Positions 1,873 to 35,187 of a DNA stretch of 47,445 bases are shown here, piece after piece. The notes below the pieces were generated by a model, which saw nothing but the letters and a program-made list of their open reading frames with translations, was not told the DNA's origin and searched no databases. This DNA comes from a virus: positions 1 through 47,445 of the IMG/VR virus record IMGVR_UViG_3300033074_001474; one strand, 5' to 3'. Each line of letters starts with the position of its first letter. The stretch's first letter is position 1. The translations under genes were made by a program, and so were the position numbers.

Positions 1873-1958
1873 TTTAAATCCTCACCATTAATACCAAGAC
1901 CACTATTTAAATCTTCATAAATTTCTTGTAAATGCTTTAAATCGTTTATCTTTTTCAT
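1869..1958 (-). CDS. 29-aa mini-ORF (MKKINDLKHLQEIYEDLNSGLGINGEDLK)
   Basis: Fills the gap between two genes exactly, with an ATGA start/stop overlap at both ends. Below the ORF-track size cutoff. Confidence 0.3.
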   Translation of the reverse strand: MKKINDLKHLQEIYEDLNSGLGINGEDLK

Positions 1959-2716
1959 CCTAACACCTCTTTCAATTCTTGTCTTATCTTGTCATCTTGT
2001 TTAGCTTGAAAATACTTATCAGCCGTTGTGATTGATGACCAGCCAAAGATTCTTTTAATATCAGCATGAGAAAATCCCGACCTAGAGAGTTTTGTAGCAA
2101 GAAGTTTTCTGAGTGAATGTGGTTTAAGCCCAATCTCTCTAAGAGCCTTTCTCACTTGGTACTCTCCTGGAAGTTTCCCTCTGTAGTCAAAAAATACAGT
2201 TCTCTCAATCCCGCCCTTACCAATCACAGACGATGTCTCATGATTTACGTTGTAAGCTTCTTCAATCCTAAGTCCTGAATTCAAAAGGGCCATGCAAAAT
2301 CCGCGAACAGCTTCGTCTTTAATCAAACTAATTTTCTCCCTAGCAGTATCGAAATCTATTTTCAATCTCTCTGGTCTGTAGGCTCTGTTCATTGCTGTAC
2401 GACTTCGGTGCATTTCATTCTTAAAGGGGTTTAAGCCCTTAGGGAATGCGCCCTTGTTAGCTCCAAACTCATAATAAGAGGCTGCACGTATTAGCATAGT
2501 CTTTATCGTATAAGAGCCGTAGCCTCTATCCGTGAGGCTTTTATGAAATTCATTTCCTGACATACCAGTCTCTGTTTTAATAATGTGAATAATTTTCTTA
2601 AGCCTAGCTGCTTCTGATTTATAACAAGATTCAGTCCAAGCTGTTTTATGAAAGTCTAAATACTTGTCGTAAAGTTCCCAATAAGTATCTCTTAAATCAA
2701 CCGTTATTTTTTCCAT
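1955..2716 (-). CDS. tyrosine recombinase / integrase-family protein (short, 253 aa)
   Basis: Catalytic-type motifs: SGLRIEEA (Arg), GKGGIERTV (Lys), PHSLRKLLAT (H-x-x-R), GWSSITTADKYF (Trp/His position plus nucleophile Tyr). Confidence 0.8.
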   Translation of the reverse strand: MEKITVDLRDTYWELYDKYLDFHKTAWTESCYKSEAARLKKIIHIIKTETGMSGNEFHKSLTDRGYGSYTIKTMLIRAASYYEFGANKGAFPKGLNPFKNEMHRSRTAMNRAYRPERLKIDFDTAREKISLIKDEAVRGFCMALLNSGLRIEEAYNVNHETSSVIGKGGIERTVFFDYRGKLPGEYQVRKALREIGLKPHSLRKLLATKLSRSGFSHADIKRIFGWSSITTADKYFQAKQDDKIRQELKEVLG

Positions 2717-5047: not shown

Positions 5048-5319
5048 TAAGGTATTCCTGGCTTAGTTCTTTTTATATTAAGTTTGTTAGTTATATTTAT
5101 CCAATCGGATTTTTGCTCTACTGGGATCAGTATCTCTTGGATCATATCCCCATAGGGTCTATATGGGGCTCCAGCGTAACCGAGGTTTACCCAATTAACT
5201 GAAATATTCAAGTTATCTGGGCTTTTATAATTTATTTTTTTAACTTCAATACCTACATCCATAGCATTTTTATGCATATAAGTATCCCCAACTTCGAAAT
5301 GATTATCAAATGCTATCAT
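5047..5319 (-). CDS. hypothetical protein, 90 aa
   Basis: ORF track. Confidence 0.6.
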   Translation of the reverse strand: MIAFDNHFEVGDTYMHKNAMDVGIEVKKINYKSPDNLNISVNWVNLGYAGAPYRPYGDMIQEILIPVEQKSDWINITNKLNIKRTKPGIP

Positions 5320-6521
5320 AACTTGCTCCGTCTAAGGTCCATTGAGTTCTTTAGCACTTTGAGTTCATATATAGGTCCGCCGTATTCTAATTGCACCTTA
5401 TAAACCTTATTCTCATATAATACCTTCATTAGTTGCTCTTGTAAAGCTTCTCTTTCTTTAGCCGTGTCTGTTAGATTGTGGAATCTTTTTAAATCTTCAA
5501 CAAAGGTCTCGCCCAATTCTATAGCCTTTTTAGGCCAATCCTTGTTTGGTAAAGTTTTAAAAAATGCTTTTAGGGTGTCCAGACCCTTCCAACAATCTTT
5601 CTTATAGCTACAAAAAGCGCACTTCATATTACCTGGACTAAACTCCTGTTTAGCAAGGGTTACATCCCCCACTTCTGCGGCCTTAGTTGCATTCTTGAAT
5701 CGTTGTTCTACTTCATTGTACAATCCTTGACTTGGTTTAAAACGAATCTCTCTAAGTCTACTTGAGTTTTTGTCATAGTAAAGAAGTGCTGCATGATCAA
5801 AGCCCTTAGCTTTAAAGAAGTCTGATAACACATATAAATTTAATTGATAAAAATTCATAGCCATGAAGGGATCATTTAATTCTTTTAGGAATGACTGAAC
5901 ATCCTCAACATACCATCCATCATGGGAGTCTGGTATTGGAACTATTGTATGCATCTCTTTAAACCTCTCTGACTGCTCATCCCAGGAATCCTTAAAGTAG
6001 TTTGAGTGTTTTACTTTTTTTGACTTAACGTCTATTAACACCTTCCATCCGTGTGATTCATTCTGAAACGCGGCATCTGTAGAACCCTCAATATAGGTAT
6101 TAAGTTTAGGGTTTGATGATTCTATTTTAAAGAATAATAAGCTTTGCTGCTGGTAGGAGATTTTTAAAAGCTCTACTTGTTTGAATTGATATAGAAGGTG
6201 ACTTTCAATGCTGTGACCTAAACTAAATATTAACTGTGTCTCTGGGTCTAGCGGTTCTTTCTCATAGAAAGCTTGGCCGGAGAATTCCATTAGCTCATAA
6301 GCTAGCTCTCTCTCGCACTTTCCCGCACTACTAGGTCTTAGAGGGTTCTTTTTTCCGCCATTTTCTTTTAAATCATCTAATTCTTTTTTAGACTTTTCAA
6401 ATAAATGGTCTCTAAGCAAGTCCGTATAAGCTACAGGACACCCAGGAATCTGGACGTTAGAAGCTTTATCCTTTTTCTTGATAGGATTTGTTATATCAAA
6501 GTCCTCGTTATCTTCTATCAT
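5316..6521 (-). CDS. PD-(D/E)XK exonuclease with Cas4/AddB-type Cys cluster
   Basis: N-terminal Cys (SSAGKCERE), IDVKSKK (D-x-K core), C-terminal CAFCSYKKDC (C-x2-C-x5-C). Confidence 0.7.
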   Translation of the reverse strand: MIEDNEDFDITNPIKKKDKASNVQIPGCPVAYTDLLRDHLFEKSKKELDDLKENGGKKNPLRPSSAGKCERELAYELMEFSGQAFYEKEPLDPETQLIFSLGHSIESHLLYQFKQVELLKISYQQQSLLFFKIESSNPKLNTYIEGSTDAAFQNESHGWKVLIDVKSKKVKHSNYFKDSWDEQSERFKEMHTIVPIPDSHDGWYVEDVQSFLKELNDPFMAMNFYQLNLYVLSDFFKAKGFDHAALLYYDKNSSRLREIRFKPSQGLYNEVEQRFKNATKAAEVGDVTLAKQEFSPGNMKCAFCSYKKDCWKGLDTLKAFFKTLPNKDWPKKAIELGETFVEDLKRFHNLTDTAKEREALQEQLMKVLYENKVYKVQLEYGGPIYELKVLKNSMDLRRSKL

Positions 6522-7014: not shown

Positions 7015-7569
7015 TTATTCCCCATTTTTCTTCCTCTTTTTATATTTTTTCCAGTTTTTCTTATTATACTCTTTCATATAAGCTTTTCTATCCACAGGTA
7101 GTTTAATTTTCCTTCTATTTAAGTTTTGCGTTTTATATGTAGCCCATCTTACATTTCCTGGCTCGTAGTTACCATTATTATCAATTCTATCTATGGTTAG
7201 ACCTTCTTTAGGTAGATTGTCCATATAGTCTTTAAATAGCTGAAAATTATTTTTCCAGTCCTCATATACAGAAATCCCTCGGCCACCATAGTGCATAAAT
7301 TTTTTATCTTTAGCATTATAACACCTCTGTATGATGCTTACCCAAACTTTATACAACTTTGTATCACTTGCCCCATGCCGCATTGTAGAACAAGATCTAC
7401 AACTCTTTGTTAATCCTCTTGTAACATTCTCAAGAAAAGGATAAAATATAACCCCGCAAGTATCGCAGAAAACCTCAGCAATATAGCGTCTTTTTGGGGT
7501 CGTTCGCTCTGGCCTATTATCAATATAATCCTTAAAAGAGAATCTGTTATTTAATATTACTACTCCCAT
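7015..7569 (-). CDS. HNH_3-like (degenerate, D-R) homing-endonuclease-like protein
   Basis: YKVWVSIIQRCYN...YGGRGISVYEDW...TIDRIDNNGNYEPGNVRWAT..QN.N. N-terminal Cys pairs. Paralog of 13706..14284. Its start overlaps the DNA polymerase stop by 10 nt. Confidence 0.6.
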   Translation of the reverse strand: MGVVILNNRFSFKDYIDNRPERTTPKRRYIAEVFCDTCGVIFYPFLENVTRGLTKSCRSCSTMRHGASDTKLYKVWVSIIQRCYNAKDKKFMHYGGRGISVYEDWKNNFQLFKDYMDNLPKEGLTIDRIDNNGNYEPGNVRWATYKTQNLNRRKIKLPVDRKAYMKEYNKKNWKKYKKRKKNGE

Positions 7570-9500
7570 GTAGCATTTGCTCCGCCATCTACTGTTAAAG
7601 GAAGATTTTTATCTCCTACTGGGAGTTTGAATTTGGTAAACTCATATTCAATTCGTTTACATAATTCTTCAACACTATTGCCATCAATCTCCGTCAATAC
7701 AGAATCATGAATAAATCCTAAGGGAGTACATCCTTTAATTGCAGCTATGTCTGTTGCAGCTTGCTGACATAGATCGGAAGCTGATCCTTGAATGAGTCTA
7801 TTAAGACCCTTCATATAAACATCTTCTGGGTTATCAATCTTAAACGGCCGCCCGAAAAGATTGAATAATACTGCCCCGGATTCAAGTTCGGCATCCAGTT
7901 CTTGTTTGAACTTCCAAACTCCTGAATAATGCTCCCGTAGGTTGTACACAATATCTTTACACTGCTTTTCAGTTACATGTAGCCCTTGTGAAGTAGTTTC
8001 AGCTTGAACCCTCCGCCAACCGCTGCCATAAATACAGGATAATCCAACCGTTTTAGCAATAAACCTTAATATAGGATAAGCATCTTTAACCTCGGATTCT
8101 GTAATTCCTGGCTCCATAAAATTATGGAACATAGTAATAGTATTTAGGTTATGGAATGACTGTCCATTAAAAATTAAATCACACAGGGCTTTATCTTGAC
8201 TGAAGTAAGCTAGTATTACAGGCTCAATAGCGCCTAAGTCATAGGTTGCTATTAGTTTACCTGGTGAGGCTTTAAATAAGGGCTTAAGCGATTTAGGTGT
8301 TTGTTGAAGGTTCGGGTTGCTGCACGATAATCTACCAGTCCTCGTACCATCAAAATTAAACGTAGAATGAATTTTTCCTTTGTACTCTTCTTTTCTATAA
8401 GTTGGAAGAAATCCAGTTAAAATCTTTGAAGTCTCTCTGTACTCAAGCAGTGTTTTAATCTCGGGCTCAGACTTGGCAAGCCTCTCAAGGACTTCAGCTC
8501 CTGTGCTCTCTTCTCCGTAAAAGTTTCTAATATCAAGCTTTAAATAGTCTTTAAGAAGCCATTTCATCTGCACTGGAGAATCTAGATTAAATTTAAATTC
8601 GCTTTGAGCGTACGCTTTATCGTACAGATTTTTATATTTTAGTTGTAGGTTATCTACATCCTTTGGCTTTTTAGTAGGTTTTTGATAAGCCTTTTCAAAC
8701 ATCTCTTGATATTTCTTCTGAAGATTTAAAACTTCAATTCTTTCATACTCGTTAAAAGCCTCGCCCCACTGTCCATAGATTTTATTTTTGAGTTCCTGTT
8801 CCTTTTCTTTAAATTCACCTTCGAGCTTATTAAGCTTCTCAACATCAAAATTTATTCCAGTAACTTCGGCTTGCAATAAGGTTCTAGCCCAGGGCATTCC
8901 GTAATTGCAGTAGAAATCTAATTGAAATAACTTTTTAAGTCTTTGTCTTAAAAAAAGACGAAGCTGCGTGGTATACCGCACATCTAAAGTTACATACTCA
9001 TCTGAATCATGGTCTGCTGGATTTTCCCAAAAAGGCTGAACACCTAGAAAATACGGGGCCAAAGTTTTAAGAGAGTGTAGCCCTGCTGGTCTATGATTTA
9101 TTCCTGGGGGCAGTTCCTCATTTAGTCTTTTTCTGTCCTCTTCATAAACGCCTAGCCAATGCTCATCTATTTTATCCGTACACACATAGGCCATAAGCCT
9201 CGTGTCTTCCTCGTAAGCTGAGTATCCGTTAGCGGGGAGGGAACCTAAGTGGTGTGTTAAAACTCTAAAATCCCATTTGAAATTGTGGCCACAGAATAAA
9301 AATTCAGGATCATTCCAAATCTCTTTTTTGAAGGTTTCTAAATCTCTGTATATGATAACTTCATTACTTTCTCTAGATGCATTCTGAACACCAATGACTG
9401 TTATTTTATTTTTAAAGGGATTCAGAGCATCTTCTTTTTCAGAAGTTACACTTTGGGTCTCAATATCTATCGTAAGCAGGGTTTTATCAAAAACACTCAT
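7560..9500 (-). CDS. family A DNA polymerase with 3'-5' exonuclease domain
   Basis: Exo I: LTIDIETQS. Exo II: HNFKWDFRVL. RTGRLSCSNPNLQQTP. Motif A: YDLGAIEPVILAY. Motif B: RFIAKTVGLSCIYGSG. Motif C: FIHDSVL. Confidence 0.9.
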   Translation of the reverse strand: MSVFDKTLLTIDIETQSVTSEKEDALNPFKNKITVIGVQNASRESNEVIIYRDLETFKKEIWNDPEFLFCGHNFKWDFRVLTHHLGSLPANGYSAYEEDTRLMAYVCTDKIDEHWLGVYEEDRKRLNEELPPGINHRPAGLHSLKTLAPYFLGVQPFWENPADHDSDEYVTLDVRYTTQLRLFLRQRLKKLFQLDFYCNYGMPWARTLLQAEVTGINFDVEKLNKLEGEFKEKEQELKNKIYGQWGEAFNEYERIEVLNLQKKYQEMFEKAYQKPTKKPKDVDNLQLKYKNLYDKAYAQSEFKFNLDSPVQMKWLLKDYLKLDIRNFYGEESTGAEVLERLAKSEPEIKTLLEYRETSKILTGFLPTYRKEEYKGKIHSTFNFDGTRTGRLSCSNPNLQQTPKSLKPLFKASPGKLIATYDLGAIEPVILAYFSQDKALCDLIFNGQSFHNLNTITMFHNFMEPGITESEVKDAYPILRFIAKTVGLSCIYGSGWRRVQAETTSQGLHVTEKQCKDIVYNLREHYSGVWKFKQELDAELESGAVLFNLFGRPFKIDNPEDVYMKGLNRLIQGSASDLCQQAATDIAAIKGCTPLGFIHDSVLTEIDGNSVEELCKRIEYEFTKFKLPVGDKNLPLTVDGGANATWE

Positions 9501-10375: not shown

Positions 10376-10945
10376 TTACTTCTTATTATTCTTTTTTATA
10401 TTACTCTTTAATAAAAACTTCTCAAACCCCGTAACACCTACTGCTATTGAATCTAATGCATCATACCTGTGAGCTTTAATTAAATCAAGTAATAGACTAT
10501 CCTCTGGAAAAAATGGAATTAATCCAAGAGCTACTTGCTCCTTATCTGATTTTCCACTTCCCCCAACAAAGGACTTAATCTGCATATTTGATACGTGCTC
10601 CATTTGCACGCCAGAAGGGATGACTGCCATGATTGCTCCAATAACTCTCTGTAAGCTCTCTCCGCCCTTACCTAACATCACCGTAGACTCTACGAACACC
10701 ACATAATTAAGCTTATTTTCATCAAGTTTTTTAAATTCTTTAACAAGCTGTATTACTAACCCCTTTATCCTAGTTCTAAGCTCTGGTGATGGCATAACCA
10801 TTTCTTTAGCGACTAAAACTTTTTGAGTATTTGGATCAAATACAGAGAATCCAAGTGCAGACCTTGAACCTGTTGATGGGTCAATCCCTACTACTAAGGG
10901 GAACTCTTTACTTTTGCTTTGCTTTTCGTTTTTCTTGTCTTGCAT
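10376..10945 (-). CDS. RuvC-like Holliday junction resolvase
   Basis: VVGIDPSTG (first Asp), VFVESTV (Glu), AHRYDALDSIAVG (C-terminal D-x-x-D). Confidence 0.65.
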   Translation of the reverse strand: MQDKKNEKQSKSKEFPLVVGIDPSTGSRSALGFSVFDPNTQKVLVAKEMVMPSPELRTRIKGLVIQLVKEFKKLDENKLNYVVFVESTVMLGKGGESLQRVIGAIMAVIPSGVQMEHVSNMQIKSFVGGSGKSDKEQVALGLIPFFPEDSLLLDLIKAHRYDALDSIAVGVTGFEKFLLKSNIKKNNKK

Positions 10946-16049: not shown

Positions 16050-18119
16050 TTAGTTTCCTTTGTCATACTCTTTACTGCCCTCTTTAATAAGACCTTTCAA
16101 TAAGTCAATCCGGTTAATACCTTCGGTGATTTTTGGTCTGGTAGTATTGTTTAATGATTGAATGGAGACATAATATTTCTTCACATTCCCATGATTTACT
16201 TCTTTGATTTTCTTTTTAGTCATCCAATCTCTAATAGAGCGCCTGTCTGAGTTCTTCAATTCATTTAAGCCGAGCTGGTCGGCGATCTCTTTAAGCGTAT
16301 AGCACTTATCTCCTGCTGTAACTCGCGCCTCGAAGCTCTCTAAGATATCACTACGGGATATGAATCTCTCGTTATATTGGTTAACAGTATCAATTTCAGC
16401 TTGATTAAACCAGGCTCTCTCCCCCTGCTCCATTAATACCTTAGCCTCTGCGAATACTTGTCCAATGTCTACAGTATGATTTGCATTTACTGATTCAACT
16501 AGCATAATTAAATAGCGGCGATTGCCCGTGGTGTCATATAGGAAGTCTCTTGAATTTACACTCGCGCAAAAGCTTGTAATAGCTGAGCCAATTACTTCGT
16601 GCCTTCCATAGGCGGGTCTTGCCCGAACTTCAGACTTAGTGATGAAATCTTTTATGGCTCCAACATCTTTTGACCAAGTGACAGTATCTAGTTCACTAAC
16701 AGACCAGATGAAATATTTTAATAAGTTTAGATGAGAGTCTTTATCATCTGTATTAATATGAGCTTCAATGAAGCCTTGTGGGTAGGGCTGAGCTAATCGC
16801 CGGAACCATCTAGTTTTTCCTGCCCCTTGCGCCCCTACAAACACCAACATATTATTTTCTGAACCTGGCTTATAGATTCTAGTAACTACTCCAATTAGCC
16901 ACTTACGCAAAAAGATTTCATAAAGTTTTAGGTCTTCTTGGGTCACTTCCTCTGGGAATGTGAGAGTACCAAGCAAGTCATTGAACCTTGATTTACCGTC
17001 CCATACCACAGCTTCTAGGCTTGATTTCAGTGGATCATATCCGTTTTCTCTCCCAATTTTATTGACGACATCATTTAATAAGTCCTTACTACATCCAAGT
17101 TTATAATCATTTGCTGCAATACTTATATCACTTAAATCCATGTCATTAATGTACTCGCCTTCAGTTTTTTCAATTAAGTTCATTCTGGTATTAAGCCGCA
17201 GCTGCATCTTCATTACATTTTGAATTAAGTACCTAGCATTTTTAGCAGAGTTTTTTTCAATGATTGTAACTAGATCACCATTCCTATCTTCTTTGTATTT
17301 AACATCAGGCCAAGGACTTCTTTTCTCCCCTGGTTCGCCCCTGTCATTAAGGTATACATCTTCTAATTGATCAATATCCGTTTGATCAAGTGCTCCCTCA
17401 GGACTTGCTTTAGCTAACTCTTCAGCAGCCTCAACGTGTGTGTAGCCTTGTGTTTTTAGGTCTATCGCAGCTGCAATAAAACTTTCGTGCCAGCCTCTGC
17501 CATCAGAAACTCTTGCAATAAAACTTAATGTTTTACTGTTTAACTTACCTTTTATTAAACTGTCCTTTTTAGGTCTCCCTACTTTCTTTTTAAAATCTAG
17601 TAATTCAATTTTGTACAGAGTCTCTTTTGATTCATCCTCTATTTGATTAAAAACAATCTCCTTACAAGGGAAAAAATATCTTGCAGCATCTTTTGCAGCT
17701 TCATCTGCTATTCCATTTAGTCCAAGCTTTTCTTTGTAATAATTCCAGTGTGCTGTGTATTGGGCCGCATCCGTGATGGGTTTATCTAGAGTGAAGATAA
17801 TTCTATATCTATCAGCAGGTGGGTTCTTACCCTTTTGAACCTGATGAGATTTAGTTGTTCCCAAGATTACTCTATAGTCCTTAAAAAGCTCCTTAGCTTC
17901 ATCAAGACGAAGCTGCTTTTGTTCTGGGTAATTGTCTATATCGTAGGCTAAAACCGAGGAACTCTCGAAATTTTTGATGCTTCTGGTGCCATTAAATAGA
18001 CTTGGGGACCAAGGATATTCCGTTATTTCGGGCCCGAGATCTCCTAGATGATCAGAAAAAATAGATTGGGCCGGGGTTTTAGCTGCAAGTTTACTTAAAA
18101 ATGTTATTTTAAAATTCAT
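16050..18119 (-). CDS. VirE-family primase/helicase (VirE_N-like plus P-loop NTPase)
   Basis: N-terminal AYDIDN...YRIIFTLD primase-like region. Walker A: VGAQGAGKTRW. Walker B-like: YLIMLVES. Confidence 0.8.
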   Translation of the reverse strand: MNFKITFLSKLAAKTPAQSIFSDHLGDLGPEITEYPWSPSLFNGTRSIKNFESSSVLAYDIDNYPEQKQLRLDEAKELFKDYRVILGTTKSHQVQKGKNPPADRYRIIFTLDKPITDAAQYTAHWNYYKEKLGLNGIADEAAKDAARYFFPCKEIVFNQIEDESKETLYKIELLDFKKKVGRPKKDSLIKGKLNSKTLSFIARVSDGRGWHESFIAAAIDLKTQGYTHVEAAEELAKASPEGALDQTDIDQLEDVYLNDRGEPGEKRSPWPDVKYKEDRNGDLVTIIEKNSAKNARYLIQNVMKMQLRLNTRMNLIEKTEGEYINDMDLSDISIAANDYKLGCSKDLLNDVVNKIGRENGYDPLKSSLEAVVWDGKSRFNDLLGTLTFPEEVTQEDLKLYEIFLRKWLIGVVTRIYKPGSENNMLVFVGAQGAGKTRWFRRLAQPYPQGFIEAHINTDDKDSHLNLLKYFIWSVSELDTVTWSKDVGAIKDFITKSEVRARPAYGRHEVIGSAITSFCASVNSRDFLYDTTGNRRYLIMLVESVNANHTVDIGQVFAEAKVLMEQGERAWFNQAEIDTVNQYNERFISRSDILESFEARVTAGDKCYTLKEIADQLGLNELKNSDRRSIRDWMTKKKIKEVNHGNVKKYYVSIQSLNNTTRPKITEGINRIDLLKGLIKEGSKEYDKGN

Positions 18120-20290: not shown

Positions 20291-20806
20291 ATGAGAGTTT
20301 GTTATATATGCAAGATTGCAGGGGAGGAGGAAAGTTTCCCTCTGAGCCATGGGAAAAGGGAAAACAGGTGTAAGAAATGTAAGAGTAAGGCGAATAAGGA
20401 TTACTATAATAAACTGAAAACTGATCCTATAAGATTGGATAAATATAGAGAAGGGGCTAGAAAAGCTAAATATAAAAGTAATAGAACTATTGAAGGCCGT
20501 TATGGGAACCTTATTAAACAAGCTAAGAATAGAAATATAGAAGTTAAACTTACCTTAGAAGAGTATTCCTATATTATAAAGGATTTAAAATGCCATTACT
20601 GTAAGAAGGAATTACATGCCACTGGAAGTGGTTTAGATAGGAAAGATAATAATAGAGGATATGAGAAAAATAATGTAGTTGCTTGCTGCAAACACTGCAA
20701 TGAGAGAAAATCAAACTGGTTAACTTATGATGAGTACATAAAAATCATTGAGTTTTTAGAGATTAGTAGGGGAACAAGGAATATTAATTTAAAAAACAGG
20801 ACTTAA
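20291..20806 (+). CDS. HNH-like endonuclease (D-R variant), upstream of the packaging genes
   Basis: CHYCKKEL..GSGLDRKDNNRGYEKNNVVACCKHCNERKSN. AGGAGG RBS. Paralog of 43425..43778. Confidence 0.7.
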   Translation: MRVCYICKIAGEEESFPLSHGKRENRCKKCKSKANKDYYNKLKTDPIRLDKYREGARKAKYKSNRTIEGRYGNLIKQAKNRNIEVKLTLEEYSYIIKDLKCHYCKKELHATGSGLDRKDNNRGYEKNNVVACCKHCNERKSNWLTYDEYIKIIEFLEISRGTRNINLKNRT

Positions 20807-21032
20807 CTGCAGCTTCGGCTTAATTATAATTTACTTTACAGCAGTTAAGCTCAAGTATACTTTACATAAAAGACGCTGTATTCGATCTGAGCCCCCGCGC
20901 CTCCAGTAAGTTACATATCAAGTCACATACTGGTATGATTCCACGAAGTGGGATGTGAGCGGAGCGATATGCGAGCGTAGCGAGTATTAACCGATTTACT
21001 CACCAGAAGTGTCTTAGAGACAGGAGTACCAG

Positions 21033-21464
21033 ATGAAGAATAAGGCTAAGCCCAAGGGCAAGGACTTAAAAACCAATGAGATTGTATCATTCATTGAGGA
21101 AACCAACTCAATTCAAGACACCCGCGCTCGGAACATAGACGACCTAGTACTCCACGATGACCTAATGATGGGTGTCCTAGGAACCATAAAGAAGGACCTA
21201 GCAGCTGGACTAACCTCAGAGCAGATTCTAGAGAAATACTCATCATTAGCAGCCGCCCGCGTAGCATCCATAGCTGCAACCGAAGCTGACTCCTCTAAAG
21301 CCCTAGCTGCGGCTAAGGACATTCTGGATCGGGCCCAAGGCAGGGCAGTGGAGAGAAAGCAAATTCATCATAAGCTTGATAAAGTGGACGAAAAGCAACT
21401 TGATGCGATCTTATTAACTGAGCTTGAAGGATTAGAATTAGAGGAGGAAAAAGATGAAATATGA
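21033..21464 (+). CDS. small terminase subunit candidate
   Basis: First gene of the packaging block. AGGAG RBS. AAKDILDRAQGRAVERK resembles TerS C-terminal motifs. Acidic tail. Weak. Confidence 0.35.
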   Translation: MKNKAKPKGKDLKTNEIVSFIEETNSIQDTRARNIDDLVLHDDLMMGVLGTIKKDLAAGLTSEQILEKYSSLAAARVASIAATEADSSKALAAAKDILDRAQGRAVERKQIHHKLDKVDEKQLDAILLTELEGLELEEEKDEI

Positions 21465-21972
21465 AAAGGCTGACTTAATTTCTCGTTGTTTTGAGTTATT
21501 TTCAGAGTTAGACGGAATGAGTATCGAAAAAAGAGTAGATTATTTGAATAAAATAAGGAAAGACCTGGCAAAATACAGTCCATTTAAGACTGAACCCGTT
21601 GATTGTATTCAGTGGATACCTGCTGAAAATGTAAAAGCAAATGATTACAACCCGAATACTGTGGCCCCACCAGAGATGAAGCTTCTTGAACTCAGTATTC
21701 AAGAGGATGGTTATACGCAGCCAATAGTATCCTGGAAGAAAGAGGATAAATTTGAAGTTATTGATGGGTTTCATAGACATCGGGTGGGAAAAGAGTCAAG
21801 AGCTATCCAAAAGAGGGTAAAAGGATATCTACCATTAGTAGTAATTAATGAGAATAGAACAGATTTAAGTGATCGAATGGCGTCTACTATTAGACATAAT
21901 AGAGCTCGTGGAAAACATCAAGTAGACAGTATGTCAGATATTGTTGTGGAACTTAAGAGAAGGAATCCGTAG
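21454..21972 (+). CDS. IbrB-like ParB/Srx-domain protein, C-terminally truncated
   Basis: RVDYLNKIR...SPFKTEPVDCIQW...ANDYNPNTVAPPEMKLLELSIQEDGYTQPIV...VIDGFHRHRVGKE...MASTIRHNRARGKHQVDSMSDIVVELKRRN, then a stop. Confidence 0.75.
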   Translation: MKYEKADLISRCFELFSELDGMSIEKRVDYLNKIRKDLAKYSPFKTEPVDCIQWIPAENVKANDYNPNTVAPPEMKLLELSIQEDGYTQPIVSWKKEDKFEVIDGFHRHRVGKESRAIQKRVKGYLPLVVINENRTDLSDRMASTIRHNRARGKHQVDSMSDIVVELKRRNP

Positions 21973-22094
21973 ATCCGGACGCCAATAGGATTCAGCACTT
22001 CGAATCTAGGGTCGACAAATTGGTATATGAATTGTACGGTCTTAGCGAAGAGCAAATTGATCAAATTGAAGGGGCATTTAATGGCGAGAGGTAA
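21957..22094 (+). pseudogene. start-less remnant resembling the C-terminus of a type IIG / BREX-type N6-adenine methyltransferase
   Basis: The open frame reads ...VDPDANRIQHFESRVDKLVYELYGLSEEQIDQIEGAFNGER*. No ATG/GTG start. The stop overlaps the ATG of the next ORF (AATGGCGAGAGGTAA). Confidence 0.4.
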
Positions 22095-22326
22095 AAACGA
22101 GAAACAACGTGATGTTCTCGCGGAGCTTTTTGCGAACCGAGATAAGAATATTGAATCCGCCAAAAATTGGACAATTTGGGAGATCCAAGATCAGCTAAAA
22201 CGAGTGGAAGCTGCAAAAGAAAGTTTTTTACTTAAAGATCCCAATCACGATGTCTCAATAGTTAATGAGCATATTGAGCAACTCACTCAAGCATTGAAAA
22301 TTAAATCTGGCGATGTCTCTATATAG
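22081..22326 (+). CDS. hypothetical protein, 81 aa (MARGKNEKQRDVLAELF...)
   Basis: Internal ATG of ORF 22027..22326, coupled to the upstream remnant frame. GAAGGGG RBS. Confidence 0.5.
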   Translation: MARGKNEKQRDVLAELFANRDKNIESAKNWTIWEIQDQLKRVEAAKESFLLKDPNHDVSIVNEHIEQLTQALKIKSGDVSI

Positions 22327-22436
22327 ATTTCTTCAGATGTAGTATTATGTCGTAGGAACATTTCTAAGTAACCGGATTTACTGATGAGTCCGATTCAGAA
22401 AGTCTCCCTACCAAATGTCGTCCGGAGACGAGGGCG

Positions 22437-22736
22437 ATGGATTCTGATGAGGTTTTAAGACTATGTCAGGTATCGGGACTTACAGAATTGTTCAGTAACA
22501 GTAGAAAGCAAATGAATAAGGTTATTATGGAAGTCGAAGAAGAGTTAATCAAGGCTTGTGATAAGTTTCCAGGATTTCATTCCGAGCATGAAGGCTACGC
22601 TGTTATATTAGAAGAAGTAGATGAGCTTTGGGAGATGGTGAAACTTAAGCCAGAAAATAGAGATAAAGAACTAATGAAGAGAGAAGCTATACAGATAGCT
22701 GCAATGTCTTTGAGGTTTATTAAAGACCTATGTTAG
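22437..22736 (+). CDS. MazG-like all-alpha NTP pyrophosphohydrolase candidate carrying the displaced IbrB C-terminal segment at its N-terminus
   Basis: The first 20 aa, MDSDEVLRLCQVSGLTELFS, look like the missing IbrB tail. Then EVEEEL...(about 20 aa)...LEEVDEL fits an EXXE-N-EXXD arrangement. Alternative starts at M26/M31. Confidence 0.5.
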   Translation: MDSDEVLRLCQVSGLTELFSNSRKQMNKVIMEVEEELIKACDKFPGFHSEHEGYAVILEEVDELWEMVKLKPENRDKELMKREAIQIAAMSLRFIKDLC

Positions 22737-22746
22737 TATTAGTTGT

Positions 22747-24219
22747 ATGAAAAGAGTTGACCCACACAAACTTTCTCAATTATCAAAAGAAGAAAAGCTT
22801 AAGCTATACGATACGCTTCAAAAAAAGAAGCAGCTTGCCAAGGCCAGCCGCGACACATTTAAGCCCCATCCTGGACAATTGCCAGTTTTAAAATCTGAAA
22901 AGTATATTCGCTTAGTCACAGCAGGTAACGGATATGGGAAAACGGCGTTAGCTGTAAACCACGCCCTGTATGCAGTTAACGGTTACCAGCCCTACTGGAA
23001 AAAACATACTAAAGCACCAAGTGTAGGAATAGTTGTACTAGATAATCCACTAAAGGTAAAAGAAGTTTGGATAAAGGAATTAGATAAGTGGTGCAATCTA
23101 ACTGAAGTTGAGCAACTAAAAAATGGGAAGCCCTATGTTAATGAGCTAGTATTCAAAAATGGGAGCCGGATTATTTTCATGTTCCATGAGCAAGAAGATA
23201 TGATTTTTGAGTCAATGGAAATGGATTGGGTCATATATGATGAGCCCCCACCAAGAAATATATTCATAGCGCTATCCCGAGGTCAAAGGAATAAATCCTC
23301 AAAGCCTTGGCAATTAATAATTGGAACGCCGTTAGCAGCAGCTTGGCTTCGCCAAGAGGTTTTCGAGCCCTGGGAGCGCGGTGAAAGAGATGACGTCGAA
23401 TGTTTTCGTGGAAGTACAGAGCAAAATAAACAAAACCTATCTGATGGGTATATGGAGCAATTTTCAAGACTCCTAACTGAAGAAGAGAAAAAAATTCGAT
23501 TAGAGGGGCAGTGGTTTGATTTAGGAGGACTTGCATTAAAACACTTAATCAAGCCAGAGCTGCATTACGTCTCGCCCTACCCATGGCACCACGATGATCC
23601 AGTAATAATTGCAATCGACCCACATCCGTCTAAAGCCCACGTAGCGATAGCTTTAGGCAAGAATAAATATGGAAGGAAGTATGCAATTGGGGAGTTAGCA
23701 GCTAAGGCCACCGCCCGTGATTTCGCCTTAAAGTTGCACGAGTGGTCTAGAGGCTGGAAGGTAGCAGATATCGTAGTAGACTCATTAGGTTCAGCAGATA
23801 CTACCGGAGGAGAAGGCTTTGCTAGCTTCATTCAAGTCTTAAAGGATTGCGGAATTAAGTGCCGGGCCACTACGTTTGAAGAAAAGGATGATGAAAGCTG
23901 GATTGATCGTATAAGATCTGTTCTTGAGATTCCTCAAACACCAGATAATTTTGGACAAACCTTACCGGGGCTTCAGATATTCAGAAACTGTCCCAACTTG
24001 ATTAAGGACATAGAGAATGTGGCTTGGTTAAAATATAAGAATCTAGATATGAATAAGCCGAAGCTGGATATTAGCCATAAAGACTACTTGGCTTGTCTTA
24101 AGTATGCGCTAGCTGCGGACGCAAATCACTCATCCCACTTAAACAGGGAAGCTAAAACAATCAGATTAGCAGAAAATAAGGCGGTAAGCATAAGAAACCG
24201 CTATTTTAATAGAAGGTGA
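22747..24219 (+). CDS. terL: terminase large subunit
   Basis: Walker A-like: TAGNGYGKTAL. Walker B: WVIYDEPP. C-terminal RNase H-like nuclease: IIAIDPH...VVDSLG. Position immediately upstream of the portal. Confidence 0.85.
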   Translation: MKRVDPHKLSQLSKEEKLKLYDTLQKKKQLAKASRDTFKPHPGQLPVLKSEKYIRLVTAGNGYGKTALAVNHALYAVNGYQPYWKKHTKAPSVGIVVLDNPLKVKEVWIKELDKWCNLTEVEQLKNGKPYVNELVFKNGSRIIFMFHEQEDMIFESMEMDWVIYDEPPPRNIFIALSRGQRNKSSKPWQLIIGTPLAAAWLRQEVFEPWERGERDDVECFRGSTEQNKQNLSDGYMEQFSRLLTEEEKKIRLEGQWFDLGGLALKHLIKPELHYVSPYPWHHDDPVIIAIDPHPSKAHVAIALGKNKYGRKYAIGELAAKATARDFALKLHEWSRGWKVADIVVDSLGSADTTGGEGFASFIQVLKDCGIKCRATTFEEKDDESWIDRIRSVLEIPQTPDNFGQTLPGLQIFRNCPNLIKDIENVAWLKYKNLDMNKPKLDISHKDYLACLKYALAADANHSSHLNREAKTIRLAENKAVSIRNRYFNRR

Positions 24220-32598: not shown

Positions 32599-35187
32599 AT
32601 GGCAAATAACAGCTTCAAAATAAAAAAGTCAATAAATATTGAGCCTCTAGCAAGCCCCACGCTAAATGCTGAGGGCGATATTGGAATGAACTCTACTTCA
32701 CATAAGCTCGAGGTCAGAGATAACTCAGCCACGCGCAGCGTGGTTACAGAAGATGGAACCGCTACACTCACTAATAAAACCTTTGATGCAGATGGAACAG
32801 GAAACTCAATAACCAACATTGAGAACGCCGACATCAAAGCCGCAGCTGCTATAGCTTTAAACAAGCTGGCTGCAACCACAGCAAGTCGCGCACTAGTTTC
32901 AGATGCATCTGGTTTTGTTTCAGCTGCAACTACGACTTCAACAGAGATTGGTTATGTGAATGGGGTCACATCTGCAATTCAAACTCAAATTGATGGAAAA
33001 ATTTCTGCTTCAAGCTCTGACACTCTAACAAATAAAACAATTGATGCAGATGCAAATACTATAACTAACATTGAGAACGCCGACATCAAAGCCGCAGCTG
33101 CTATAGCTTTAGATAAGTTAGCCGCAACCACTGCATCAAGAGCTTTAGTCTCTGATGCGTCAGGATTTGTAAGTGCAGCTACTACGACTGCTACTGAGAT
33201 AGGCTACGTGAATGGAGTCACATCTGCAATACAGACGCAGCTGGATGGTAAGATTGCTAAAACATTGACTACCACGACTGGGGATATGATTTATGCATCA
33301 AGTGCTAACACCCCAGCTAGACTTCCCATAGGTTCTGCTGGACAGGTGCTAAAAACTGTTGGAGGAATTCCGGCTTGGGCCGCAGCTTCTTCGGGAGGCA
33401 TCAACTACATTTCATCTAACCCTGATGCCGAAGCCGATACTACTGGCTGGGCAACGTATGCTGATGCCGCAGGAACAAGTCCTGTAGATGGAACAGGTGG
33501 AAGCCCCAATATCACTTGGACAAGAACTACATCGTCGCCTTTGCGTGGATCGGGCAGCTTTCTTTTTACTAAAGACGCAGCAAACAGACAAGGCCAAGGC
33601 GCTTCCTATGACTTCACTATTGATTCATCAGATAAAGCAAAAGTTCTTACAATAAATTTTGATTATATTGTGGGAAGTGGAACGTTTAGCGCTGGTTCTA
33701 GCTCTGCAGATTCAGACTTAACAGTTTGGATTTACGACGTAACCAACTCACGATTAATTCAACCAAGTACTATTAAATTATTTTCTAACTCAAGCACTAT
33801 TGCGGATAAATATTCTGCACAATTTCAAACGTCAAGCGACTCAACATCTTATAGATTAATTTTCCATGTAACTTCTACTAGTGCGTCTGCTTATACACTT
33901 AAGTTTGATAATTTCTCTGTTGGACCAAGTTCGTATATATTTGGAACTCCTGTTACGGATTCAAAAAGTTACTCCCCTGCTGGCAGTTGGGAAAATACCA
34001 CTTACAGTGGACAATATTGGAGAGTTGGAGACAAGTTTAATGCCCAGATAAATTTAACATTTTCATCCGCACCTACAACTTCCGATTTTTCTATGACCCC
34101 CGCTCAATTGTTTAATGGTTTGGGAATAACGCTCGATACAGCTAAGTTAGGTTCTGGAGTGATTTCTATAGGAACTTGGGCTGCTCGTGACTTGGGTACA
34201 GCAGAATACAGTGGATCACTCTATCTTTATGCGGGCACAACAATTTATATGGGTGATATTGATGGAAATGGTAACGTCACTAAAACAAATCCTTTTACGA
34301 TTGCTTCTGGAGATTTTTATGACTTACAAATTCACAATCTCCCTATTCTTGGCTGGTCATCATCTGTTCAAATGAGTGACTCAGCTGATACTAGAGTGGT
34401 TGCCGCTGGATACTCAACACTATCCTCAACATCATATACTTCCCCTAATGCAATTGTTCACACCACGAAATTATATGACACACATAACGCTTACAATACC
34501 AGTACAGGGGAATACACTGCACCAGTACCGGGAATATATAAAATAACAATTGGACGTACATATACAGGATCAGGAACCATAAATTATGGAATATATAAAA
34601 ATGGATCAATTTCATTAACAGCAGTAATTCAAGCGGGATCAGTAGCCAGAGTTAATGGCAGCGCCTCAATTCAAGTAAACGCTGGAGATAAGTTAACTGT
34701 AGTTGGAGATACTTCAGTAACCTTTGGAGATACTGGAGGTTATATCTTTTTTGAAAGACTTTCTGGCCCTTCAGCCATAGCTGCTACTGAGACTATTGCA
34801 GCTAAATATACGGCAATAAACACGACGACGTTTACTACCTCAGGAGTTGTGGCAGATTTTGCAACAAAGGTCTTTGATACTCATGGAGCGGTAACTACTG
34901 GGGCGTCTTGGAAATTTACAGCTCCAGCTTATGGAATTTATCATATATCATTAGGATTTTATCCATCATCTACAGTTGGCTTAATCATCAATTTACAAAA
35001 AAATGGGTCGGCTGTTGAAAGACTTGCAGAAATAGCTGCTAGCAGTACAGCTAAAGAAATTAGTGCCTCTACAGAAATTTTATTGAATGCTGGAGATTAT
35101 ATTGACCTAAAAGGTTTTGCAGGATCAACAACATTAACTTTTTTTAATGATTCTACATTAAATAGAATAAGCATTTTTAGGATTTAA
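32599..35187 (+). CDS. tail fibre protein with internal tandem repeat
   Basis: 862 aa, Ser/Thr/Gly/Ala-rich, with an ~86-aa duplicated module near the N-terminus. Confidence 0.65.
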   Translation: MANNSFKIKKSINIEPLASPTLNAEGDIGMNSTSHKLEVRDNSATRSVVTEDGTATLTNKTFDADGTGNSITNIENADIKAAAAIALNKLAATTASRALVSDASGFVSAATTTSTEIGYVNGVTSAIQTQIDGKISASSSDTLTNKTIDADANTITNIENADIKAAAAIALDKLAATTASRALVSDASGFVSAATTTATEIGYVNGVTSAIQTQLDGKIAKTLTTTTGDMIYASSANTPARLPIGSAGQVLKTVGGIPAWAAASSGGINYISSNPDAEADTTGWATYADAAGTSPVDGTGGSPNITWTRTTSSPLRGSGSFLFTKDAANRQGQGASYDFTIDSSDKAKVLTINFDYIVGSGTFSAGSSSADSDLTVWIYDVTNSRLIQPSTIKLFSNSSTIADKYSAQFQTSSDSTSYRLIFHVTSTSASAYTLKFDNFSVGPSSYIFGTPVTDSKSYSPAGSWENTTYSGQYWRVGDKFNAQINLTFSSAPTTSDFSMTPAQLFNGLGITLDTAKLGSGVISIGTWAARDLGTAEYSGSLYLYAGTTIYMGDIDGNGNVTKTNPFTIASGDFYDLQIHNLPILGWSSSVQMSDSADTRVVAAGYSTLSSTSYTSPNAIVHTTKLYDTHNAYNTSTGEYTAPVPGIYKITIGRTYTGSGTINYGIYKNGSISLTAVIQAGSVARVNGSASIQVNAGDKLTVVGDTSVTFGDTGGYIFFERLSGPSAIAATETIAAKYTAINTTTFTTSGVVADFATKVFDTHGAVTTGASWKFTAPAYGIYHISLGFYPSSTVGLIINLQKNGSAVERLAEIAASSTAKEISASTEILLNAGDYIDLKGFAGSTTLTFFNDSTLNRISIFRI
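32770..33260 (+). repeat. two tandem ~250-nt (~86-aa) modules inside the tail fibre gene
   Basis: TNKT(F/I)DAD..ITNIENADIKAAAAIAL.KLAATTASRALVSDASGFVSAATTT.TEIGYVNGVTSAIQTQ.DGKI occurs twice. Long identical nt runs include 32816-32860 = 33068-33112. Confidence 0.85.

What the first reader, a model, noticed from the sequence alone, without database searches (positions are those of the whole stretch)
21454..22500. IbrB-like ParB-domain gene interrupted: its conserved C-terminal segment reappears ~470 bp downstream
ORF 21454..21972 matches the IbrB-type ParB/Srx family along its length. It stops right after ...MSDIVVELKRRN.

As I recall them, family members continue roughly W-x4-IA-x-ELG-MD-x-DE-(I/V)-LRLCQ-x-x-GL.

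The next sizeable ORF (22437) begins MDSDEVLRLCQVSGLTELFS and then runs on into a MazG-like domain.

The gene therefore appears split after codon 171. About 11 codons are lost and about 470 nt of foreign sequence (21967..22436) is inserted.

Removing 21967..22436 would restore the frame (...RRN-MDSDE...).

The options are an insertion/deletion scar, a split gene expressed as two polypeptides, or a spliced intervening sequence.
Basis: partly seen in the sequence, partly recalled or inferred. Interest (0 to 1): 0.7.

Follow-up and report, generated by a model that had tools for sequence, protein, structure and literature searches.

The report
ParB gene split by captured DNA
A phage's IbrB-like ParB gene is cut in two by a 455-base patch copied almost verbatim from a restriction-enzyme locus of another mobile element, which makes it an ordinary recombination scar and not an intron or a deliberately split gene.

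Summary
ORF 21454-21972 is the first 171 codons of an IbrB-type ParB gene. More than 100 homologues are 212-260 aa and continue ...KKRN-RSEDWIAKHLG-MDADEVLRLCQVSGLVEMFSNS-EFSKSW.... The window resumes at 22437 with MDSDEVLRLCQVSGLTELFSNS, so 11 codons are missing.

The intervening DNA is not an intron. Window 21960-22414 (455 nt) is 98.7% identical, without gaps, to a stretch of an integrase-bearing mobile element (L009/L020). That stretch holds the last 44 codons of a 984-aa MmeI-like type IIG restriction-modification gene, a complete overlapping 81-aa ORF, and 88 nt of 3' flank.

The left junction lies in a 7-8 nt microhomology (AAGGAAT[C]). The right junction has 22 nt of filler of unknown origin. 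Rfam finds no intron core.

ParB also lacks its last 25 codons. Its 22-codon remnant is fused in frame to a 74-aa gene whose native start is 22512. The window has no IbrA partner, which relatives always carry.

Verdict: a recent illegitimate-recombination or template-switch scar in a decaying accessory module, sitting in the variable TerS-TerL slot of an SU10-like phage. Interest is low. The one open point is whether the intact captured 81-aa ORF does anything for the phage.

The parts
21033..21464 (+). TerS-like gene (143 aa). It is the upstream border of the variable slot, and its stop overlaps the ParB start.
   Evidence: PHROG 2538 terminase small subunit, E=3.9e-6. An orthologue of 146 aa is present in relative L008 at 5106-5546.
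21454..21972 (+). Truncated IbrB-type ParB/Srx gene. Codons 1-171 are ParB. Codon 172 (CCG) and the TAG stop are read from the captured DNA.
   Evidence: All 78 columns that are invariant across the window sequence plus 35 relatives (alignment A5) lie within the retained 171 residues.
21960..21967 (+). Left junction. AAGGAAT (plus C if the ancestral Arg codon was CGN) is shared by the ParB coding sequence and the donor RM gene.
   Evidence: Alignment A3 and junction print-out. Relative L006 reads AAAAGGAATCGTAG at the same place.
21960..22414 (+). Captured 455-nt patch, 449/455 identical with no gaps to L009 6880-7334 and L010 683-1137.
   Evidence: blastn 98.68% identity, 6 mismatches at 21990, 22291, 22311, 22321, 22323, 22358. 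Alignment.
21960..22094 (+). Remnant of a MmeI-like type IIG RM gene: its last 44 codons plus the TAA stop. It has no start codon and is in a different frame from ParB.
   Evidence: L009 RM residues 941-984 match at 97.7%. The PADLOC REase_MTase_IIG model hits at its extreme C-terminus, E=2.6e-5. The donor gene carries HSDR_N, N6_Mtase, MmeI_Mtase, Eco57I and TaqI_C.
22081..22326 (+). Complete 81-aa ORF (ORF81) of unknown function, captured with its own AAGGGG Shine-Dalgarno-like sequence. In donors it overlaps the RM stop by 14 nt.
   Evidence: 98% identical to P0241. It lies downstream of a MmeI-like RM gene or an RM-type C-terminal tail in L009-L013 and L017-L019. The mechanical 99-aa ORF from 22027 is an upstream over-extension.
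22327..22414 (+). 88 nt of the donor's 3' flank. Donor homology ends after ...CTCCCTACCAA.
22415..22436 (+). 22-nt filler ATGTCGTCCGGAGACGAGGGCG of unknown origin. It contains a GGAG 9 nt upstream of the ATG at 22437.
   Evidence: Unique in the window. Absent from the donor loci. The single metagenome match is to an unrelated gene.
22437..22502 (+). ParB C-terminal remnant, MDSDEVLRLCQVSGLTELFSNS, equal to residues 183-204 of 229-aa relatives.
   Evidence: tblastn 78% identity, E=8e-8. Sequences.
22437..22736 (+). 99-aa fusion ORF: ParB remnant, then RKQ, then the native 74-aa gene (22512-22736), which is possibly an all-alpha NTP-PPase/MazG-like fold.
   Evidence: Relative P0121 (74 aa, 93% identity) starts at the position of window 22512. 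L007 has a different upstream gene and homology breaks near 22508. AF2 and Foldseek.
22747..24219 (+). Large terminase, the downstream border of the variable slot.
   Evidence: PHROG 10250. 75% identical TerL in L008. An SU10-type portal follows.

Best explanation
This is a recombination scar in a decaying accessory gene of an SU10-like phage.

The phage carried an IbrB-type ParB gene in the variable slot between its small and large terminase genes. Relatives show this gene as part of an IbrB-IbrA (ParB plus PAPS-reductase/DUF3440) module.

Recently, a 455-nt stretch was copied into ParB after codon 171. The source was a MmeI-like type IIG restriction-modification operon carried by an integrase-, primase- and resolvase-bearing mobile element. 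The copy event probably happened inside a cell that also held that element.

Entry used a 7-8 nt microhomology (AAGGAAT[C]). This fits illegitimate recombination or a replication template switch onto the donor and back. The return to the phage template landed 33 nt further on and left 22 nt of filler. Eleven ParB codons were therefore replaced.

Consequences:
- ParB now stops one codon into the patch and gives a 172-aa protein.
- The patch brings an untranslatable RM tail and an intact 81-aa ORF.
- A separate rearrangement removed ParB's last 25 codons and whatever followed them, including any IbrA. It joined the 22-codon ParB remnant in frame to a 74-aa gene.

What is shown: the donor identity, both breakpoints, the missing codons, the absence of IbrA, and the native start of the 74-aa gene.

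What is inferred: the molecular mechanism, the direction of transfer (the donor holds the whole gene, the phage only the tail), co-residence in one host, and loss of function.
For: Donor and patch:
- Window 21960-22414 matches L009 6880-7334 at 98.68% identity, 455 nt, 0 gaps.
- The L009/L020 context is HTH_3 repressor, resolvase, primase (DUF7146/Toprim), HTH_17, integrase, 984-aa RM (N6_Mtase, MmeI_Mtase, Eco57I, TaqI_C), then ORF81.
- The tail peptide hits the type IIG C-terminus.
- ORF81 follows an RM tail in all eight other loci.

ParB side:
- ParB homologues are 212-260 aa and contain the missing 11 residues and the C-terminal tail.
- tblastn gives both halves of ParB.
- The left microhomology is seen directly.
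- IbrA/DUF3440 lies beside ParB in L002, L005, L006, Microcystis phage Mwe-JY13 and E. coli phage PhiR5_2. It has no match in the window.

Variable slot:
- L007 has another gene upstream of the 74-aa gene.
- L008 has neither ParB nor the 74-aa gene.

Not an intron and not an artefact:
- No intron model matches, and the RNA fold z-score is -1.7.
- A Logan assembly (L001, run SRR32380200) is 100% identical to the window over 20.5 kb, and four contigs carry the 172-aa protein.

Recency:
- The patch differs from the donor by only 1.3%.
- No family-invariant residue of ParB-N has changed.
Against: - No closer relative with an intact ParB at this locus was found. The best is 78% amino-acid identity, and exact junction scans of viral contigs found nothing. 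The ancestral allele and the order of the two lesions are therefore reconstructed, not observed.
- The right junction has no microhomology, and its 22-nt filler is unexplained.
- The host and the donor organism are unidentified.
- Every family-invariant residue of ParB-N is retained. This also fits continued selection on a still-useful truncated protein.
- The two assemblies may derive from the same or related samples.
Confidence: 0.87

Rival explanations
1. The captured 81-aa ORF is kept because it benefits the phage. As the conserved, translationally coupled partner of a MmeI-like RM enzyme, it could modulate or neutralise that enzyme. On this view the phage hijacked a defence-system component as a counter-defence, and ParB disruption is collateral damage.
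For: - ORF81 is intact, with its own Shine-Dalgarno-like AAGGGG, while only a useless stub of the RM gene came along.
- The family is found only next to MmeI-like RM genes.
- The patch is compact: the ORF plus 121 nt upstream and 88 nt downstream.
Against: - The patch is only 1.3% diverged from the donor, so an intact ORF is expected without any selection.
- Of its 4 differences from the donor, 3 nucleotides give 2 amino-acid changes (A to S, I to L) and 1 is silent, which is uninformative.
- No function could be assigned by Pfam, PHROGs, PADLOC, an AF2 model at pLDDT 71, or Foldseek.
- No second, independent phage capture was found.
Confidence: 0.08
2. The arrangement is a functional split. 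The 172-aa ParB/Srx domain works on its own, and the C-terminal remnant serves as a new N-terminal extension of the 74-aa protein.
For: - All 78 family-invariant residues of the ParB N-domain are intact.
- Gene callers call both ORFs.
- A GGAG lies 9 nt upstream of the ATG at 22437.
- The native AAGGAG seen in L007 upstream of the 74-aa gene is lost in the window.
Against: - Eleven nearly invariant residues (RSxxWIAKHLG) and the 25-residue tail are missing.
- The IbrA partner is absent.
- None of the homologues returned or listed shows such a split.
- The event looks too recent for selection to have shaped it.
Confidence: 0.06
3. 21967-22436 is a self-splicing or otherwise spliced intervening sequence (a group I or II intron with an intron ORF), and the mature mRNA encodes a continuous ParB.
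For: - The 5' exon would end in U and the insert ends in G.
- The two ends of the insert can pair: a 16-nt imperfect inverted repeat, 13/16 complementary.
- An ORF lies inside the insert.
Against: - No Rfam intron family matches at E<=10.
- The RNA fold z-score is -1.7, and 7 of 100 shuffles fold at least as well.
- The insert is 98.7% identical to ordinary coding DNA of an RM operon, where it is not flanked by ParB exons.
- A spliced product would lack 11 conserved codons and then run into an unrelated gene.
Confidence: 0.01
4. The patch is an assembly chimera between the phage and a co-occurring element.
For: The sequence comes from a metagenome, and the donor element occurs in similar data sets.
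Against: - The patch is embedded, with phage sequence on both sides.
- The junctions share only 7-8 nt on the left and none on the right, far below assembler k-mer sizes.
- A Logan contig from run SRR32380200 is 100% identical over 20.5 kb, and four contigs carry the 172-aa protein.
- The patch differs from the known donors at 6 positions.
Confidence: 0.02

Closest known systems
Phage genome mosaicism by illegitimate (microhomology-mediated) recombination, gene fragments and 'moron' slots (established knowledge from my own memory, the Hendrix/Hatfull model; not tested against papers here)
   Same: - There is a novel joint at a few bases of shared sequence.
- Foreign DNA sits in a variable slot between conserved genes, here TerS and TerL.
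- Neighbouring relatives carry different cargo at the same place (L007, L008).
   Different: - The joint lies inside a gene, not at a gene boundary, so it destroys the gene.
- The donor is identifiable at 98.7% identity, which is unusual.
- The patch is very short, which fits a template switch better than two independent crossovers.
IbrB/IbrA module (ParB/Srx protein plus PAPS-reductase/DUF3440 protein) of prophages and phages
   Same: - The N-terminal 171 residues are a good family member: 65-75% identity to the 35 metagenomic relatives aligned (up to 78%), and 52% to annotated IbrB of phage PhiR5_2.
- All family-invariant residues are present.
   Different: - Residues 172-182 and 205 to the end are lost.
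- There is no IbrA anywhere in the window.
- The window therefore holds a remnant, not a working module.
MmeI-family type IIG restriction-modification enzymes (described as single-polypeptide systems; PMC2582602, PMC2731913)
   Same: The donor gene has the MmeI-type domain set (HSDR_N, N6_Mtase, MmeI_Mtase, Eco57I, TaqI_C).
   Different: - The window holds only the last 44 codons, with no start codon.
- The donor lineage has a conserved overlapping 81-aa downstream ORF, which is not part of the described MmeI system.
Group I introns in phage genes (T4 td, nrdB and others; from memory)
   Same: A coding gene is interrupted by a few hundred nt that contain an ORF, and the conserved protein sequence resumes downstream.
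   Different: - There is no intron core.
- The exons are not contiguous, because 11 codons are missing.
- The interrupting DNA is a fragment of a foreign protein-coding operon.

Membership tests
IbrB-type ParB/Srx protein | ParB N-terminal (Srx-like) domain with the family's invariant motifs (DGFHR, RHNRARGKH) | tested here: met
   Pfam ParB_N E=1.5e-5. PHROG 2159 E=8.8e-57. All 78 invariant columns are kept. 52% identity to annotated IbrB.
IbrB-type ParB/Srx protein | Full length of about 212-260 aa, including the conserved C-terminal segment RSxxWIAKHLGMDxDEVLRLCQVSGL...FSKSWD | tested here: not met
   The gene stops at residue 172. The 11 residues RSEDWIAKHLG and the last 25 residues are absent. 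Only 22 residues survive, 470 nt downstream.
IbrB-type ParB/Srx protein | Adjacent IbrA partner (PAPS_reduct and/or DUF3440) | tested here: not met
   The partner is present next to ParB in L002, L005, L006, Mwe-JY13 and PhiR5_2. tblastn of three IbrA-type proteins against the whole window finds nothing better than E=0.25.
Group I / group II intron | Conserved catalytic RNA core detectable by covariance model | tested here: not met
   Rfam 15 cmscan of 21000-23500 at E<=10 gives only seven chance-level hits, none to an intron family. The RNA fold z-score is -1.7.
Group I / group II intron | Removal restores an uninterrupted homologue of the host gene | tested here: not met
   Joining 21966 to 22437 still lacks 11 nearly invariant residues, and the product runs into an unrelated 74-aa gene.
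Group I / group II intron | Splicing of the transcript | not testable with these tools
   This needs RNA-seq or RT-PCR across 21.9-22.5 kb.
MmeI-like type IIG RM gene (in the window) | Single polypeptide with nuclease, gamma-class N6-MTase and target-recognition domains | tested here: not met
   Only residues 941-984 of the 984-aa donor protein are present, with no start codon. The fragment hits only the last ~35 positions of the PADLOC models.
Transposable element / MITE | Terminal inverted repeats, target-site duplication, and multiple copies | tested here: not met
   - The 16-nt imperfect inverted repeat at the ends has its left arm inside native RM coding sequence of the donor.
- No target-site duplication was seen; 33 nt were deleted instead.
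- The patch is single-copy in the window.
- In all other loci the segment sits in one fixed context.
MazG-like all-alpha NTP pyrophosphatase (the 74-aa gene 22512-22736) | Sequence or fold membership in the MazG/all-alpha NTP-PPase superfamily | tested here: inconclusive
   - No Pfam or PDB sequence hit.
- hhalign against a PF03819 MazG gives probability 0.2%.
- The AF2 model has pLDDT 97.7.
- Foldseek top hit is 2p06, prob 0.97, TM 0.71, but E=0.7. Further weak hits are 2gta, 2oig, 2yxh and 1yvw.
- One homologue is named 'NTP pyrophosphatase' by JGI.

The most novel reading that the evidence does not exclude
The phage has hijacked ORF81 as an anti-restriction or regulatory tool against its host's defence. 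ORF81 is a rare 81-aa protein found only as the translationally coupled downstream partner of a lineage of MmeI-like type IIG RM enzymes.

If true, two things would follow. An accessory subunit would exist in a family described as single-polypeptide. And a fresh example would exist of phage counter-defence arising by direct theft of a defence-locus gene.
Probability: 0.07. Interest if true: 0.6.

Novelty: already known. Interest (0 to 1): 0.2.

Why it matters
Mostly this is a caution and a tidy example. A conserved protein segment that reappears a few hundred bases downstream looks like an intron or a split gene. Here it is a datable recombination scar whose donor can be named to the base.

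Practical value:
(1) The 455-nt patch at 98.7% identity links this uncultured SU10-like phage to cells that carry a particular integrative element. That is a usable host or co-residence marker.
(2) It gives a base-resolved case of microhomology-mediated capture of defence-locus DNA by a phage.
(3) It flags a rare 81-aa ORF that is always coupled to a lineage of MmeI-like enzymes and is uncharacterised.

None of this changes current understanding of phage genome evolution.

Tried and rejected
- Intron: an Rfam E-value scan and an RNA fold gave nothing.
- DNA similarity of the insert to cultured phages: only chance 23-33-nt hits.
- Pfam on the RM tail peptide and on ORF81: nothing.
- Host identification failed. 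No ORF81 relative was found in 185,579 species genomes. The closest RM relatives are only 28% identical, in Dehalococcoidia and Ferruginibacter MAGs.
- Ancestral allele: exact scans of IMG/VR for the 24 nt before the left junction and for the 29 nt across the ParB-remnant/74-aa-gene joint gave 0 hits.
- Origin of the 22-nt filler: one metagenome hit lies in an unrelated high-GC ETF-ubiquinone oxidoreductase gene. One 20-mer match is about what chance predicts in a collection that size (my rough estimate, not computed). The filler is absent from the donor loci even with 5-6 mismatches allowed.
- Idea that donor homology ends at an att site or tRNA fragment, because of the motif GTCTCCCTACCA shared by the L009 and L019 flanks: no tRNA and no second copy were found in 12.2 kb of the donor contig. 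Unsupported.
- Idea that the filler is a diverged remnant of the lost RSED codons: it can be aligned only with indels and free codon choice, so I do not count it as evidence.
- ORF81 function: AF2 gives 4 helices at pLDDT 71. Foldseek returns only generic helical hairpins such as ribosomal L29. A profile search of 1.84 billion representatives found 10 proteins, none with Pfam domains that explain it.
- Homology of the 74-aa gene to the MazG gene that follows IbrA in L005: none.
Full report
**1. What is in the sequence**

The window is a phage contig with an SU10-type portal and adaptor, a terminase and a capsid gene. It also carries a family A DNA polymerase, a RuvC-like gene and an integrase-like ORF.

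On the + strand around the finding lie these genes:
- an HNH/endonuclease VII-like gene (20291-20806);
- a TerS-like gene (21033-21464);
- ORF 21454-21972 (172 aa);
- an ORF listed mechanically as 22027-22326;
- ORF 22437-22736 (99 aa);
- TerL (22747-24219) and the portal.

**2.

ORF 21454-21972 is a ParB/Srx protein.
- Pfam ParB_N gives E=1.5e-5.
- PHROG 2159 gives E=8.8e-57.
- It is 52% identical to the annotated IbrB of Escherichia phage PhiR5_2 and 64% identical to 'ParB/sulfiredoxin' of Microcystis phage Mwe-JY13.

The 119 best non-self homologues in 5.8 billion proteins are 212-260 aa, against 172 aa here. They continue ...DIVVELKKRN-RSEDWIAKHLG-MDADEVLRLCQVSGLVEMFSNS-EFSKSWDIE....

tblastn of an intact relative places residues 3-166 at window 21475-21966 (75% identity). 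It places residues 177-199 at 22434-22502 (78% identity, E=8e-8).

The C-terminal segment therefore does reappear 470 nt downstream, and 11 nearly invariant residues are missing.

Two additions:
- The last 25 residues of ParB are also missing.
- The 99-aa ORF is a fusion. Most homologues listed are 74-90 aa and cover only about three quarters of it. The closest, P0121 (93% identity), starts MNNILMEVEEEL, which corresponds to window 22512.

**3. What the intervening DNA is**

In a third frame, the first ~130 nt of the insert encode ...KESVDPDANRIQHFESRVDKLVYELYGLSEEQIDQIEGAFNGER*. This peptide matches the extreme C-terminus of type IIG RM enzyme models (PADLOC, E=2.6e-5, model positions 1212-1245 of 1247).

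The following ORF, with its true start at 22081 (81 aa), has only five homologous clusters in the 5.8-billion-protein database. Every one of their contigs places it overlapping the 3' end of a gene. That gene is a MmeI-like type IIG enzyme of 947-984 aa with HSDR_N, N6_Mtase, MmeI_Mtase, Eco57I and TaqI_C domains, or, in short contigs, a fragment ending in the same tail.

At the DNA level, window 21960-22414 equals L009 6880-7334 and L010 683-1137. The match is 449 of 455 bases with no gap.

The donor contig (L020) carries a cI-like repressor, a resolvase, a DUF7146/Toprim primase, an HTH_17 protein and a tyrosine integrase directly upstream of the RM gene. It is therefore a mobile element and not this phage.

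The donor has the whole RM gene and the window only its last 44 codons. The direction of transfer was therefore element to phage.

**4. The junctions**

Left junction. The window reads GAACTTAAGAG|AAGGAAT|CCGTAGATCC and the donor reads TTACCCTA|AAGGAAT|CCGTAGATCC.
- AAGGAAT belongs both to ParB codons 169-171 (..A AGG AAT) and to the donor.
- Relative L006 even reads AAAAGGAATCGTAG there.
- The crossover thus lies in 7-8 nt of microhomology (21960-21967).
- ParB then reads CCG TAG and stops.

Right junction. Donor identity ends at 22414 (...CTCCCTACCAA). It is followed by 22 nt (ATGTCGTCCGGAGACGAGGGCG) that match neither the donor nor ParB nor anything else I could find. The one metagenome hit is an unrelated gene. 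ParB resumes at the ATG of 22437.

The two ends of the intervening sequence form a 16-nt imperfect inverted repeat, 21974-21989 against 22411-22426, with 13 of 16 positions complementary. The left arm is ordinary donor coding sequence. This may be a trace of a fold-back template switch or it may be chance, and I leave it unexplained.

**5. Not an intron, not an artefact**

- Rfam 15 at E<=10 on 21000-23500 returns seven chance-level hits and no intron family.
- The insert's RNA fold has z=-1.7.
- Removing the insert does not rebuild ParB.
- The same DNA is native coding sequence elsewhere.

A chimeric assembly is unlikely for three reasons.
- The patch is embedded in phage sequence and shares at most 8 nt at a junction.
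- It differs from the donors at six positions.
- A Logan assembly from run SRR32380200 is 100% identical to the window over 20.5 kb, and four contigs carry the 172-aa protein.

**6. Context and consequence**

In every relative examined, the ParB gene sits beside an IbrA-type gene (PAPS_reduct and/or DUF3440). This holds for L002, L005, L006, Mwe-JY13 and PhiR5_2. The window has no such gene.

The TerS-TerL interval is a variable slot.
- L007 is about 90% identical by eye (alignment A2; not computed) through the 74-aa gene and the start of TerL. It has a different gene upstream, and homology breaks at about 22508.
- L008 (TerL 75% identity) has neither ParB nor the 74-aa gene.

ParB here is therefore accessory cargo that has lost its partner, its tail and an internal piece.

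The N-terminal domain still has every family-invariant residue, and the patch is only 1.3% diverged from the donor. This fits a very recent event. It does not distinguish a dead remnant from a still-useful truncated domain.

The filler happens to place a GGAG 9 nt before the ATG at 22437. The AAGGAG that precedes the 74-aa gene in L007 is absent in the window. The 74-aa protein may therefore now be made with a 25-residue extension that includes the ParB remnant. This is inference only.

**7. Mechanism, with status of each step**

Shown:
- the donor, both breakpoints and the left microhomology;
- the loss of 33 nt and the gain of 448 unambiguous donor nt plus 22 nt of filler;
- the premature stop.

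Inferred:
- The phage replicated in a cell that held the donor element.
- A microhomology-primed template switch, or two illegitimate crossovers, copied a short stretch and returned 33 nt downstream.
- An independent deletion removed the ParB tail and whatever followed it.

**8. Comparison with known things**

The phenomenon is standard phage mosaicism by illegitimate recombination (my own knowledge). The window's ParB fails two of the three IbrB-module criteria: full length and an IbrA partner. The insert fails all tested intron criteria and all tested transposon criteria.

'MazG-like' for the 74-aa gene is only weakly supported.

**9. Residual novelty**

ORF81 is a very rare family, with 10 representatives in 1.84 billion proteins. 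It is always coupled to a MmeI-like enzyme, although MmeI is described as a single-protein system (PMC2582602).

Its function is unknown. The AF2 model is 4 helices at pLDDT 71, with no significant PDB, Pfam, PHROG or PADLOC match.

The phage received it intact. Given how recent the event is, this is expected by chance. A counter-defence role is possible but has no positive evidence, and I put it at about 7%.

**10. Verdict**

- This is an ordinary, already-known kind of event.
- Interest is 0.2.

Noticed in passing
window 22081-22326; L009 7001-7246; L011, L012, L013, L017-L019: A very rare 81-aa ORF family: 5 clusters in 5.8 billion proteins and 10 representatives in 1.84 billion. In every locus with context it overlaps the 3' end of a MmeI-like type IIG RM gene by 14 nt. 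Its function is unknown, and it is not part of the described single-polypeptide MmeI system.
   Followed up: partly
window 21974-21989 and 22411-22426: An imperfect inverted repeat (13/16 complementary) sits at the two ends of the intervening sequence. The left arm is native donor coding sequence. The right arm is 4 nt of donor plus 12 nt of the unexplained filler.
   Followed up: partly
window 22403-22414; L009 7323-7334; L019 3' flank: The motif GTCTCCCTACCA is shared by otherwise dissimilar 3' flanks of ORF81 in two donor lineages. Donor homology in the window stops one base after it. No tRNA or second copy was found in 12 kb of the donor contig.
   Followed up: yes
window 21465-22746 vs L007 1-414 and L008 5547-6000: The interval between the TerS-like gene and TerL is a variable cargo slot. 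L007 has a different upstream gene plus the 74-aa gene. L008 has only two short ORFs and neither ParB nor the 74-aa gene.
   Followed up: yes
window 22485-22514 vs L007 150-182: The strong AAGGAG Shine-Dalgarno sequence before the 74-aa gene in L007 is replaced in the window by AGTAGAAAGCAA. A GGAG lies 9 nt before the upstream in-frame ATG at 22437, so the start site of this gene may have shifted.
   Followed up: no
window 22512-22736: The 74-aa protein family (over 1000 metagenomic homologues, no Pfam family) gives a very confident three-helix AF2 model (pLDDT 97.7). Its weak Foldseek hits cluster on all-alpha NTP pyrophosphatases (2p06, 2gta, 2oig, 2yxh, 1yvw).
   Followed up: partly
window 1955-2716 (-), 7560-9500 (-), 10376-10945 (-), 16050-18119 (-): An integrase-like ORF (PF00589, C-terminal part only), a family A DNA polymerase, a RuvC-like resolvase and a VapE-like primase/helicase lie on the minus strand. 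The integrase hint suggests the phage may be temperate.
   Followed up: no
window 32599-35187 (+): An 862-aa structural-region protein has a C1q domain hit (PF00386, E=1.8e-9). It is presumably a tail fibre or receptor-binding protein.
   Followed up: no
window 20291-20806 (+); L005 7383-7970; L006 7535-8014: An HNH/endonuclease VII-like gene lies just upstream of the packaging genes in the window. In ParB relatives L005 and L006, an Endonuclease_7 gene lies directly upstream of ParB.
   Followed up: no
L021 3626-4051 (Microcystis phage Mwe-JY13); L005 8669-9037; L006 8669-9052: In several relatives a second small gene (122-141 aa) sits between IbrB and IbrA. It is annotated ParB/sulfiredoxin in Mwe-JY13, so the module there is three genes and not two.
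   Followed up: no
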